A DNA stretch of 64,000 bases from an uncultured Muribaculaceae bacterium (GCA_964513345.1 CAZELY010000001.1:8289-72288), one strand, 5' to 3'. Shown: positions 3,901-4,567, counted from the stretch's first letter. Notes: generated from the sequence alone by a model not told the origin. Program-made: numbers and translations.

Positions 3901-4567
3901 TGATACAGATAGGAATTGGCAATTCTGTATAAGATCTGTAGATAATGCTGGAAATGCAAGTGCTTGGAGTGGCAGATATTATTTCATGATAGATAAAACC
4001 AAACCAACTTGTAAATTAGCAGTCACTAGTGGAAGCACATGTTCAGGAGCAGATGGCAGAACATGGTATACATCAAATGTTGTAATTAAGTTACAATCAC
4101 CAGCTGACACAGGCGGCAGCGGATTAAACACTGGCTCATATAAAGTTGCTGGCACTGCTAATCAATACACATTGTCATCTGACGGAAAAGACAAAACGAT
4201 AACAGGAACACTTACTGACAATGCAGGAAACCAAGGCTCTTGCACTTTGAAAGTTAGTCGTGATACAGCAAATCCAACAATATCAAGATTAGCTGGTGAA
4301 TGTGAGTCTTGGCGATATTGGTACCATTACCGAGTGGCCGATTCAACGTCTGGAATATATAGTCGTGATTTGCAACACACATATGATACAAGCTGTGGCA
4401 GCAATTGGGGCGAACACCTTAGTGAAAGTGGCTTAGGCAGCGTATCTTCATATGAATTCTGGGAAGCAGCACACAATTCTTATGGTTCTACATGTGTATG
4501 GGTATATACATGTGATACAGCATGCCATTGTGTTGAAAACTATTCTGGCTGGAGCTGGAGTTGTTAA
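977..4567 (+). CDS. Giant modular type IV pilin-like protein (~1,196 aa): prepilin signal, pilin head, multiple Cys-stapled Ig-like modules, Cys/Trp/Tyr-rich tail
   Basis: RBS TAGGTG 6 nt before ATG 977 (track start GTG 968 is also possible). Leader MNKKSIKKKATNRKNSKRKTVKKKG then FTLIELIGTIVLISMLALII (Gly-1, Phe+1, Glu+5, hydrophobic helix). Cys pair 27 aa apart in the head. Repeated D-K-T-x-P-T module boundaries with GWY/SGV/AGN motifs. Confidence 0.85.
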   Translation: MNKKSIKKKATNRKNSKRKTVKKKGFTLIELIGTIVLISMLALIIAPAANRVVKKGRIVAEVQQEENVLLAGRNWGGDHKNLLPDKGTIRDISIEDLQKEGYLDKGIKKISTGELLTGCIRITNASNSTNGKQKYVYTYFPDITVCIIGYDGGATNIDIKAKEVINGVEQTDEYNGNWTNNPIKLIANVTSNGQPIQAPKYIWRKGTGNDQTTTTTNTKLIQLNKEEGQFSYFVSTNGTNYYGPKNLKIDTKAPTITATKSPDGANDKIHFTIEDHGSGVAGYQFTTSKNAPTNWTNVTNNPTKYEDEVNELSGVYYVWAKDSAGNISLPMKVAAKPRCEITLSGDKGEGTWYRSNVTVTVNQTNGTNLTSKKLTGNGQTSTTGVLTHSAETNSVTYTAEVTNAAGTGTCTTTFKVDKTQPTCTVTPSGTTSGGWYTGDATITLTRQDSGTVASGVASAYDFTTSATATYNQSSTAASITATQGNTTGVTYYGYVKDKAGNTNSCHTSTIKVDKTKPTASIETTATLKATSQTATLKCSDSGSKVKSYYWGTSAPTTSSTYTSITATDSMSINKTVNAAGTYYLACKDTAGHVSTTVSKVYRSYTVKNMLQNVSGSTYTTTDYTQTSSATYVAPKGTTLTLASIYSIPNGSRAGRFVGISSGSASTTAATPSTAAVTLNSNATYTAWFTRNVLYFKYKTNGGTLTATTTSSDGANTYKWATDSDGYITRSTNGGTATSNFYSYRYGVASIDLANYNNTTYLNITKSGYVGKSGAEWLCESGCKTSGKTFTHNAYNLTAPSGGVPTDEICDAKSSDCTVVVKVNWGPTCSITLSGTVGENSWYKSNVTVTMTIDGTATSKGLATTQNSTNGSTSVTHSTNGSSITYYGYVANAGGSNTCSKTFKMDKTAPGVPTSTIRYDSASGSVRTNANSWTNRTLWWGSFSATDTGTSGVNHYEYSTNCTGTKSGNLSSSYTYDTDRNWQFCIRSVDNAGNASAWSGRYYFMIDKTKPTCKLAVTSGSTCSGADGRTWYTSNVVIKLQSPADTGGSGLNTGSYKVAGTANQYTLSSDGKDKTITGTLTDNAGNQGSCTLKVSRDTANPTISRLAGECESWRYWYHYRVADSTSGIYSRDLQHTYDTSCGSNWGEHLSESGLGSVSSYEFWEAAHNSYGSTCVWVYTCDTACHCVENYSGWSWSC

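What the first reader, a model, noticed from the sequence alone, without database searches (positions are those of the whole stretch)
4298..4564. Cys/Trp/Tyr-rich C-terminal tail on the 1,196-aa pilin, ending in a terminal Cys
Seen in sequence: the last ~89 aa are ECESWRYWYHYRVADSTSGIYSRDLQHTYDTSCGSNWGEHLSESGLGSVSSYEFWEAAHNSYGSTCVWVYTCDTACHCVENYSGWSWSC. They hold 8 Cys and a very high Trp/Tyr/His content, and the final residue is Cys. This is unlike the Ig modules before it. The paralog has an analogous but non-identical tail (6801-7010). I recognise no domain. Inference: this is the distal, functional tip, possibly a knottin-like, metal-binding or redox module, or a receptor-binding knob.
Basis: seen in the sequence. 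Interest (0 to 1): 0.62.

Follow-up and report, generated by a model that had tools for sequence, protein, structure and literature searches.

The report
Diverged disulfide-stapled end module of giant pilin
The odd cysteine- and tryptophan-rich tail of this 1,196-residue pilus protein from an uncultured gut bacterium is most likely a strongly diverged last copy of the Ig-like module that builds the rest of the stalk, held by disulfide staples, and not a new knottin-like or metal-binding domain.

Summary
The sequence is as reported: window 4298-4564 (+) encodes the last 89 residues of a 1,196/1,199-aa type IV prepilin and ends in Cys. It has 7 Cys, not 8. It is the most Cys+Trp-rich 89-aa stretch of any real protein in this 886-kb genome.

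It is an orphan by ordinary search: no Pfam, NCBIfam or PDB hit, none in 1.8 billion representatives, and only a 99% twin in another metagenome.

It is not "unlike the Ig modules". It aligns with the C-terminal modules of 12 homologous giant pilins:
- DSTSG lies on the DxxSG loop.
- YDTSC lies on YYDxxC.
- VWVYTCDTACHC lies on the [ILV]x[ILV]xxCDxAGNC turn.
- The final Cys lies on their near-terminal Cys.

hhalign against those modules gives P 8.5e-6; 0 of 200 shuffles come near. An HMM built without it scores it best of this protein's modules (iE 0.002). Cys on both sides of the DxAGN turn co-occur in 20 of 21 cases (Fisher 3e-31), which implies a hairpin disulfide. AlphaFold gives seven strands with both motifs in the usual loops, and the two-module model matches tandem Ig-like structures.

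Verdict: a diverged, disulfide-stapled terminal Ig-like cap of a modular pilin, probably a variable binding end. Knottin, metal-site and redox readings are unsupported. Interest is modest.

The parts
977..4567 (+). Gene for the giant modular type IV pilin-like protein. It is 1,196 aa from ATG 977; an in-frame GTG at 968 would give 1,199 aa, and that numbering is used here. Layout: 27-aa basic leader (24 aa from the ATG), G|FTLIE, pilin module with a Cys122-Cys149 pair, about 8 Ig-like modules, a ~200-aa non-Ig insert at residues ~621-828, and the terminal module.
   Evidence: The twin P0007 starts at the ATG.
1049..1066 (+). Prepilin cleavage and methylation motif G28-F-T-L-I-E33.
   Evidence: PF07963 at 22.5 bits (cut-off 21.2) and TIGR02532 at 19.6 bits (cut-off 16.3). 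A prepilin peptidase gene is in the genome.
3995..4285 (+). Last regular Ig-like module, residues 1010-1106. It has the bracketing pair Cys1015 and Cys1092 plus an extra Cys1025.
   Evidence: Module HMM iE 4e-23. AF2 pLDDT is mostly 80-93. Cys list.
4286..4564 (+). Terminal module, residues 1107-1199, which is the reported tail plus a 4-residue linker. AF2 predicts seven beta strands.
4340..4354 (+). DSTSG, residues 1125-1129. It is the counterpart of the DxxSG loop of the modules.
   Evidence: D and S are nearly invariant columns in alignments A1 and A2. AF2 places it between strands 1116-1124 and 1130-1139.
4394..4495 (+). Cys1143 to Cys1176: the length-variable, low-confidence middle of the module. 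It starts with SCGSNW, which matches CNW/CxW in relatives. It is the candidate variable loop region.
   Evidence: Alignment gaps and length variation. pLDDT 51-70.
4511..4531 (+). C1182-D-T-A-C-H-C1188. This is the CDxAGNC variant of the DxAGN turn, with Gly->Cys1186 and Asn->His1187. Cys1182 and Cys1188 are the inferred hairpin disulfide.
   Evidence: D and A are invariant columns. The flanking Cys co-occur 20:1:0:311, Fisher p 3e-31.
4562..4567 (+). Terminal Cys1199 codon and the TAA stop.
   Evidence: A near-terminal Cys is present in 10 of 14 aligned terminal modules.
4580..4951 (+). Downstream 123-aa lipoprotein-like gene, 13 nt after the stop and preceded by AGGAGG. It is probably co-transcribed.
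5046..7013 (+). Tandem paralog of 655 aa. Its pilin module and first modules match P0002 (47% identity over 557 aa). It ends in a different, orphan Cys/Tyr/Gly-rich tail of ~65-70 aa (about nt 6801-7010).

Best explanation
The tail is the last module of a modular type IV pilin. It is a strongly diverged, disulfide-stapled copy of the Ig-like beta-sandwich module (DxxSG ... DxAGN type) that forms the stalk.

Shown:
- The protein has a genuine prepilin N-terminus, and the genome encodes a prepilin peptidase, platform proteins and an assembly ATPase.
- The tail shares its ordered motifs with the C-terminal modules of homologous giant pilins. The match is significant and is not an effect of composition.
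- The Cys pair around the DxAGN turn co-varies across the family.

Inferred:
- After leader cleavage the N-terminal helix inserts the protein into the pilus, probably at its tip because of its bulk, or leaves it membrane-anchored. The roughly ten modules then form a stalk, and this module caps its far end.
- Disulfides brace the module: Cys1182-Cys1188 across the F-G hairpin, Cys1143-Cys1176, and Cys1112 with Cys1199 tying the first strand to the last.
- The P0002-specific Cys1186 may pair with the extra Cys1025 of the preceding module.
- The aromatic-rich, acidic, length-variable middle and the C-terminal end form the exposed binding face. Binding is most likely to glycans or another surface ligand in the gut.
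- The tandem paralogs carry different ends and so would have different specificities.
For: Pilin identity and machinery.

Orphan status by direct search.

Motif-for-motif alignment with terminal modules of homologs. D and A of DxA are invariant, and D and S of DxxSG are nearly invariant.

hhalign of the tail against a terminal-module profile that excludes it: Prob 83%, P 8.5e-6. The score is 33.3, against 10.3 +/- 2.1 for 200 shuffles (maximum 17.6) and 13.6 for the reversed sequence.

HMM of the 12 other terminal modules: the tail is the best-scoring part of P0002 (iE 0.0019). On iteration the same profile merges with the internal modules (iE 1e-5 to 2e-7).

Terminal-module profile against internal-module profile: P 4.6e-5 at the DxAGN strand.

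Best single-sequence match of the tail is the tail of the tandem paralog, iE 0.0047 over 78 residues.

Six Cys positions are shared with that paralog's six, and the whole protein has 26 Cys, in pairs per module.

CDxAGNC co-variation: 20 both, 1 single, 311 neither.

AF2 of the last 190 aa: pLDDT 76.5, pTM 0.72. The tail has seven strands, with DSTSG and DTACH in loops equivalent to those of the regular module.

Foldseek hits are tandem Ig-like proteins over both modules: 8cka at E 6e-7 and TMq 0.60, and SiiE 2yn3.

Terminal modules across the family are about twice as rich in Cys, Trp, His and Phe as the stalks.

Modular pilins presenting an effector module are established (PMC8179133).
Against: The generic internal-module HMM does not reach the tail at all (E > 10). 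Tail against internal profile is only E 0.084. The link to the Ig modules is therefore transitive, through the terminal modules.

The significant hhalign and HMM stretch covers only the first half of the tail. The DTACH half rests on alignment position and the Cys co-variation.

The canonical Gly-Asn of the turn is lost.

The AF2 model of the tail alone is poor (pLDDT 59) and has no Foldseek match. The better two-module model used an alignment that I had built on this hypothesis.

No DsbA-like, DsbB or VKOR gene was found in this 84%-complete genome, so how disulfides would form is open.

No binding function has been shown. Two-strain divergence in the tail (1 synonymous, 1 non-synonymous change) is too low to test selection.
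Confidence: 0.72

Rival explanations
1. The tail is an independent, novel small Cys-rich 'knob' domain (knottin-like or another new fold). It would have been fused after the last Ig module and be unrelated to the stalk modules.
For: There is no hit to any family, to the PDB or to 1.8 billion representatives. The internal-module HMM misses it. The tail-only AF2 model is weak and matches nothing. The paralog P0003 and several distant homologs do carry true extra Cys-rich tails after a complete last module. The last 14 residues, CHCVENYSGWSWSC, resemble the start of one such motif, CGC[DE]SW.GY.
Against: The ordered DxxSG, YYDxxC, CDxAxxC and terminal-Cys pattern is shared with terminal modules. 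The profile match is significant and robust to shuffling. The Cys map onto module positions. Seven strands over 89 residues is not knottin-like.
Confidence: 0.12
2. The tail is a decaying last module under relaxed constraint. It would be a structural stump with no specific function, and its odd composition would be drift.
For: The canonical AGN turn is lost. The sequence is an orphan. The middle of the module has low model confidence. The protein has another candidate effector, the ~200-aa non-Ig insert at residues 621-828.
Against: The frame is intact and nearly identical in two independent assemblies, whose genes differ elsewhere by 57 synonymous and 30 non-synonymous changes. All six Cys positions shared with the paralog are kept. 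Enrichment in Cys and aromatic residues is a family-wide property of terminal modules, not a peculiarity of this one.
Confidence: 0.1
3. The Cys/His cluster C1182-D-T-A-C1186-H1187-C1188, with or without the terminal Cys, forms a metal-binding or redox-active site at the end of the pilin.
For: There are three Cys and one His within seven residues. Cys1186 is specific to this protein and its 99% twin; His at the Asn position recurs only in P0053. The tail has an odd number of Cys.
Against: The site is extracellular in an anaerobic gut organism. There is no CxxC and no family hit. The two outer Cys belong to a co-varying structural pair. The closest relatives have Gly and Asn at the inner positions. 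The protein's total of 26 Cys is even, with one spare Cys (1025) in the adjoining module.
Confidence: 0.05

Closest known systems
Modular type IV pilins: Streptococcus sanguinis PilB (vWA module) and PilC (lectin module), and ETEC CofB (beta-repeat plus beta-sandwich) (PMC8179133)
   Same: An N-terminal prepilin signal and pilin module carries extra C-terminal module(s), which the filament presents, most probably at its tip. In CofB the last domain is also a beta-sandwich.
   Different: Here the added part is about 1,050 residues, with about ten modules, and no module has a Pfam signature. The largest modular pilin in that paper's 2021 survey had 860 residues. The end module is a diverged copy of the stalk module and not a recognisable effector domain such as vWA or a lectin. 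No function has been tested.
Bacterial Ig-like surface modules with DxxSG ... DxAGN motifs (Big_3-type families PF12245/PF13750, Big_13 PF19077, and the NCBIfam OmpL47-type domain NF047446)
   Same: The module is about 90 residues and all-beta, with Asp-x-x-Ser-Gly in one loop and Asp-x-Ala-Gly-Asn at the last hairpin. Homologs of this protein carry precomputed hits to these families. The paralog hits NF047446 below its curated cut-off (20.9 bits against 40).
   Different: The tail itself reaches no curated model. Gly-Asn of the turn is replaced by Cys-His. It also has seven Cys and about 30% Cys/Trp/Tyr/His.
Tandem Ig-like stalks of giant adhesins and S-layer proteins (Salmonella SiiE, PDB 2yn3; Deinococcus HPI, PDB 8cka)
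   Same: The AF2 model of the last two modules superposes on their tandem beta-sandwich domains.
   Different: Sequence identity is only 16-17%. The similarity is in fold only. Those proteins are not pilins and are exported and anchored in other ways.

Membership tests
Type IV pilin / class III signal peptide protein (PF07963, TIGR02532) | N-terminal leader ending in Gly, followed by F-T-L-I-E (Glu5) and a hydrophobic helix of about 20 residues | tested here: met
   KKKG|FTLIELIGTIVLISMLALIIAPA. PF07963 scores 22.5 bits (cut-off 21.2) and TIGR02532 scores 19.6 bits (cut-off 16.3).
Type IV pilin / class III signal peptide protein (PF07963, TIGR02532) | Cognate machinery in the genome: prepilin peptidase, platform protein and assembly ATPase | tested here: met
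   Peptidase_A24 at C1:95442-95768 (E 1e-15). T2SSF domains in three ORFs at two loci. T2SSE ATPase at window 16278-17801 (E 4e-123).
Type IV pilin / class III signal peptide protein (PF07963, TIGR02532) | Leader cleavage and incorporation into a filament | not testable with these tools
   The organism is uncultured. Proteomics or heterologous expression would be needed.
Modular pilin (as defined in PMC8179133) | Pilin module followed by one or more additional structural modules not specific to pilus biology | tested here: met
   Pilin module with a Cys122-Cys149 pair, followed by eight HMM-detected Ig-like modules, a non-Ig insert and the terminal module. Definition taken.
Ig-like DxxSG...DxAGN module of this protein family (tail as a member) | DxxSG loop motif at the equivalent position | tested here: met
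   DSTSG aligns in the nearly invariant D and S columns. It lies between two predicted strands, as in the regular module.
Ig-like DxxSG...DxAGN module of this protein family (tail as a member) | DxAGN turn before the last strand | tested here: inconclusive
   The tail has D-T-A-C-H. D and A are in invariant columns, but Gly and Asn are replaced. The flanking Cys pair matches the CDxAGNC variant.
Ig-like DxxSG...DxAGN module of this protein family (tail as a member) | Significant profile match to the internal modules | tested here: not met
   The HMM of 416 internal modules gives no hit at E <= 10. hhalign gives E 0.084 over 14 columns.
Ig-like DxxSG...DxAGN module of this protein family (tail as a member) | Significant profile match to the terminal modules of homologs, which are themselves linked to the internal modules | tested here: met
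   hhalign P 8.5e-6, and 0 of 200 shuffles reach the score. HMM iE 0.0019. Terminal against internal profile gives P 4.6e-5, and the profiles merge on iteration.
Ig-like DxxSG...DxAGN module of this protein family (tail as a member) | Beta-sandwich fold | tested here: inconclusive
   The two-module AF2 model has seven strands in the tail with pLDDT 51-88, and it matches tandem Ig-like structures. The tail-only model is poor (pLDDT 59) and has no matches.
Knottin / inhibitor cystine knot | Compact domain of about 30-50 residues with six Cys in a conserved spacing that form a knotted set of three disulfides | tested here: not met
   There is no family hit. The seven Cys are spread over 88 residues, at positions that correspond to module positions. 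Seven beta strands are predicted. Disulfide connectivity itself was not testable.
Cys/His metal-binding motif (zinc-ribbon or zinc-finger-like) | Conserved paired ligands (CxxC or CxxH pairs) kept among relatives | tested here: not met
   There is no CxxC. In most relatives, the tandem paralog included, the inner Cys1186 and His1187 are Gly and Asn (one relative, P0053, keeps His). Metal content was not testable.

The most novel reading that the evidence does not exclude
The terminal modules of these giant pilins may form an undescribed, fast-diversifying family of disulfide-stapled, aromatic-rich 'cap' domains that set ligand specificity. Tandem paralogs keep near-identical stalks (91% identity) but different caps, which would amount to a tip-cassette system for adhesion in genome-reduced gut Bacilli. 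In this member, Cys1186 and His1187 replace the Gly-Asn of the last hairpin. They might either lock the cap to the preceding module through Cys1025 or provide a reactive thiol for covalent (disulfide-exchange) attachment to Cys-rich host mucins.
Probability: 0.15. Interest if true: 0.6.

Novelty: new variant of a known kind. Interest (0 to 1): 0.3.

Why it matters
Modular pilins are how many bacteria display adhesins on type IV pili. This family of giant, multi-Ig pilins occurs in uncultured, genome-reduced gut Bacilli. This 886-kb genome has 16 prepilin-type genes, and the family is unannotated.

Recognising the strange tail as a diverged, stapled stalk module removes a false lead (knottin, metal or redox domain). 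It also defines a testable CDxAGNC disulfide variant. It points to the variable middle of the last module, and to the differing ends of the tandem paralogs, as the places to look for binding specificity. It does not reveal a new kind of system.

Tried and rejected
- Direct searches with the tail found nothing: Pfam and NCBIfam, 1.8 billion cluster representatives and PDB sequences. The word-indexed 5.8-billion set gave only a 99% twin. The own genome gave only the tail itself.
- The generic internal-module HMM did not reach the tail.
- The tail-only AlphaFold model was low-confidence and its Foldseek matches were meaningless.
- The frameshift or alternative-frame explanation was rejected. The other frames are closed and an independent assembly agrees.
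- A C-terminal sorting or anchoring signal was rejected by reading the sequence. There is no hydrophobic stretch and no LPXTG-like motif at the end.
- DNA binding was rejected as unlikely. By my count from the sequence, the tail is net acidic, with 11 Asp/Glu against 3 Arg.
- A genome-wide excess of proteins ending in Cys was not found: 9 observed against 7.5 expected.
- dN/dS on the tail from the two strains is uninformative, with 1 synonymous and 1 non-synonymous change.
- The paralog's tail (P0003) has no detectable relative even within the family. It is a different element, not a copy of this one.

Full report
**What is there**

Window 4298-4564 (+) translates to the quoted 89 residues and is followed by TAA. 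They end the ORF 968/977-4567. The N-terminus of that ORF is a textbook prepilin signal, KKKG|FTLIELIGTIVLISMLALIIAPA (PF07963 and TIGR02532).

The window lies on contig C1 of an 886-kb, 30% GC, 84%-complete genome. The records that hold its relatives are uncultured gut or rumen 'Bacilli', 'Tenericutes' or 'Bacillales' MAGs and Clostridium sp. CAG:524. The genome carries 16 prepilin-type N-termini, a prepilin peptidase, platform proteins and a T2SSE ATPase.

The tail has 7 Cys, not 8, together with 7 Trp, 9 Tyr and 5 His. Cys plus Trp is 14 of 89 against about 1.5 expected. That is the top value for any real protein in the genome; the only higher one is a wrong-frame read of a masked tandem repeat. 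No other frame is open. An independent metagenome contig (L081) carries the syntenic locus with the same tail apart from one G->S change.

**Direct searches fail**

The tail has no Pfam or NCBIfam hit. It has no hit among 1.84 billion cluster representatives and only the 99% twin in the 5.8-billion set. It has no PDB sequence match. By ordinary criteria it is an orphan.

**It is nevertheless a module of the same kind as the stalk**

A search with the whole protein found 54 relatives. Nearly all are large pilin-like proteins of 650-1,900 aa. I built an HMM from 416 of their internal modules. It finds eight modules in P0002 but not the tail.

Many relatives, however, end in a diverged module that still has the DxAGN turn near the C-terminus. 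I aligned the last 110-190 residues of these proteins in three separate alignments. Each time the tail lines up in the same way:
- YHYRVADSTSGIY lies on the DxxSG loop.
- HTYDTSCGSNW lies on YYDxxC/CNW.
- CVWVYTCDTACHC lies on [ILV]x[ILV]xxCDxAGNC.
- The last Cys lies on a near-terminal Cys that 10 of 14 sequences have.

The D and A of DxA are invariant columns, and the D and S of DxxSG are nearly invariant.

Statistics:
- hhalign of the tail against the terminal-module profile built without it gives Prob 83%, P 8.5e-6 over 34 columns.
- The score is 33.3. Two hundred shuffles of the tail give 10.3 +/- 2.1 with a maximum of 17.6, and the reversed sequence gives 13.6. The match is therefore not a composition effect.
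- An HMM of the 12 other terminal modules scores the tail as the best part of P0002 (iE 0.0019). On iteration it merges with the internal modules (iE 1e-5 to 2e-7).
- Terminal profile against internal profile gives P 4.6e-5 at the DxAGN strand.
- The best single-sequence match of the tail is the tail of the upstream tandem paralog P0008 (iE 0.0047, 78 residues).

The link from the tail to the internal modules is thus transitive. The direct comparison is not significant (E 0.084).

**The cysteines**

P0002 has 26 Cys. They fall in pairs per domain: 122/149 in the pilin module, then 342/413, 426/508, 541/589, 781/785, 812/819, 831/901, 964/987 and 1015/1092. One extra Cys sits at 1025, and seven are in the tail.

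The paralog's tail has six Cys, at positions corresponding to 1112, 1143, 1176, 1182, 1188 and 1199 of P0002. I counted 332 DxAGN-type turns in 85 non-redundant family proteins. Cys immediately before the Asp and Cys immediately after the Asn occur together 20 times, singly once (a false motif) and not at all 311 times (Fisher p 3e-31). Such coupling is what a disulfide across the hairpin would produce. The tail's TCDTACHC belongs to this variant, which also occurs in internal modules of other proteins.

From this I infer three module-type disulfides in the tail. I also infer that the P0002-specific Cys1186, which replaces Gly of the turn, pairs with the spare Cys1025 of the adjoining module. 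This last step is inference from parity and from the usual geometry of tandem Ig domains. I could not inspect coordinates.

One caveat applies. I found no DsbA-like, DsbB or VKOR gene, although all small pilins of the genome also keep a Cys pair.

**Structure prediction**

AlphaFold2 on the last 190 residues with the 14-row alignment gave pLDDT 76.5 and pTM 0.72. The tail part forms seven strands. DSTSG sits in the loop between strands 1116-1124 and 1130-1139. D-TACH sits at the turn between strands 1173-1183 and 1188-1197. These are the same relative places as DTGGSG and DNAGN in the preceding regular module. Confidence is high on those strands (up to 88) and low in the middle (51-70).

Foldseek places the two-module model on tandem Ig-like structures: Deinococcus HPI S-layer 8cka (E 6e-7, TMq 0.60, 224 columns) and SiiE 2yn3 (E 2.5e-4). 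The tail-only model was poor (pLDDT 59) and matched nothing. The structural support is therefore moderate, and it is not independent of my alignment.

**Context and variation**

Three giant pilin genes lie in tandem:
- P0008, just upstream of the window.
- P0002, the protein in question.
- P0003, at 5046-7013.

P0002 and P0003 are each followed by a small lipoprotein-like gene or preceded by a small membrane-protein gene.

P0002 and P0008 are 91% identical over 888 residues. They then diverge: P0002 has two more regular modules, and the two terminal modules share only 15-55% identity in short pieces. P0003 ends in a different, orphan Cys/Tyr/Gly tail that follows a complete last module.

Across the family, terminal modules are about twice as rich in Cys, Trp, His and Phe as the stalks, and P0002 is the extreme case. 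In related genomes, giant pilins end in very different modules. Between the two strains the gene differs by 57 synonymous and 30 non-synonymous changes, but the tail differs by only 1 and 1, which is too few for a selection test.

**Mechanism, with its status**

Shown: it is a prepilin with cognate machinery, and its last 93 residues are a diverged member of the family's terminal module with a co-varying Cys pair.

Inferred from established knowledge of modular pilins (PMC8179133): the N-terminal helix anchors the protein in the filament, most likely at the tip because of its bulk. The modules project as a stalk, and this module is the distal cap.

Inferred: disulfides stabilise the cap. Its variable, aromatic and acidic middle and its C-terminal end form the exposed face that binds a ligand, most likely a glycan. 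The paralogs offer alternative ends.

The rival readings are a separate new knob domain (0.12), a decaying stump (0.10) and a metal or redox site (0.05).

**Comparison and novelty**

The protein works like the modular pilins PilB, PilC and CofB. By architecture it is a member of that class. The tail is a variant of a bacterial Ig-like module and reaches no curated model. The CDxAGNC stapled variant and the terminal 'cap' subfamily are, as far as the libraries and papers searched show, undescribed. Even so, they are variations on a very common theme.

Earlier notes of this scan on other genomes describe similar Cys-rich ends on giant pilins of gut Bacilli. I used them as leads only.

**Verdict**

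The interpretation as a distinct knottin, metal or redox domain is not supported. The reading as a distal, possibly binding end remains plausible. Interest is about 0.3.

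Noticed in passing
Genome contig C1:4334-7393 (just upstream of the window), window 977-4567 and window 5046-7013: Three giant pilin genes lie in tandem. The upstream one (P0008, 1,019 aa) is 91% identical to P0002 over 888 residues, then lacks two modules and has a different terminal module. This pattern suggests recent duplication or gene conversion of the stalk together with divergent ends.
   Followed up: partly
Window 2828-3451 (residues ~621-828 of P0002): A ~200-aa stretch inside the stalk is not matched by the module HMM. 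It has two short-range Cys pairs (781/785 and 812/819) and no family hit. It could be the real effector domain of the protein.
   Followed up: no
Whole genome (G000): The 886-kb genome has 16 prepilin-type N-termini, including three further 550-720-aa pilins on contig C10 whose ends resemble BspA-like or 'GGNGTT...ARID...PGYFTKK' modules.
   Followed up: partly
Genome contigs C10 (5,121-aa ORF), C21 (1,045 aa) and C11 (1,060 aa): Four of the nine proteins in the genome that end exactly in Cys are giant surface proteins. The C10 and C21 proteins share a Trp/Tyr/Cys-rich tail, ...CW[VI][DE]VTAG[ND]FYG...CDT[GD]WL...NNTC*, which also contains a DxAGN-like turn.
   Followed up: partly
Window 6801-7010 (tail of P0003); homologs P0035, P0034, P0052, P0022, P0030; loci L022 and L051: A second class of end element follows a complete last module in distant homologs: CGC[DEA][SEK]W.GY ... 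C ... C ... YY-end. P0003's own tail has no detectable relative. The last 14 residues of P0002 (CHCVENYSGWSWSC) resemble only the start of this motif.
   Followed up: partly
Whole genome (G000): No DsbA-like (PF13462; PF01323 only 14.6 bits), DsbB or VKOR gene was detected, although every pilin and every Ig-like module keeps Cys pairs. Either the gene lies in the missing 16% of the genome or an unknown oxidase is used.
   Followed up: partly
Window ~3440-3460 (residues 826-830) compared with L081: The other strain has a 3-residue insertion at a module boundary (NWQMPAPKC against NWGPTC). This is the only indel between the two alleles.
   Followed up: no
Genome contig C4:~40982-41650: A tandem repeat, partly masked with N, reads in one frame as an extremely Trp/Cys/His-rich 223-aa ORF. 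It is almost certainly a wrong-frame artefact of a repeat-protein gene.
   Followed up: no
Window 539-964 and 4580-4951: A small membrane-anchored gene and a small lipoprotein-like gene flank the giant pilin with 3-13 nt spacers. The same arrangement is conserved in the second strain (L081).
   Followed up: no
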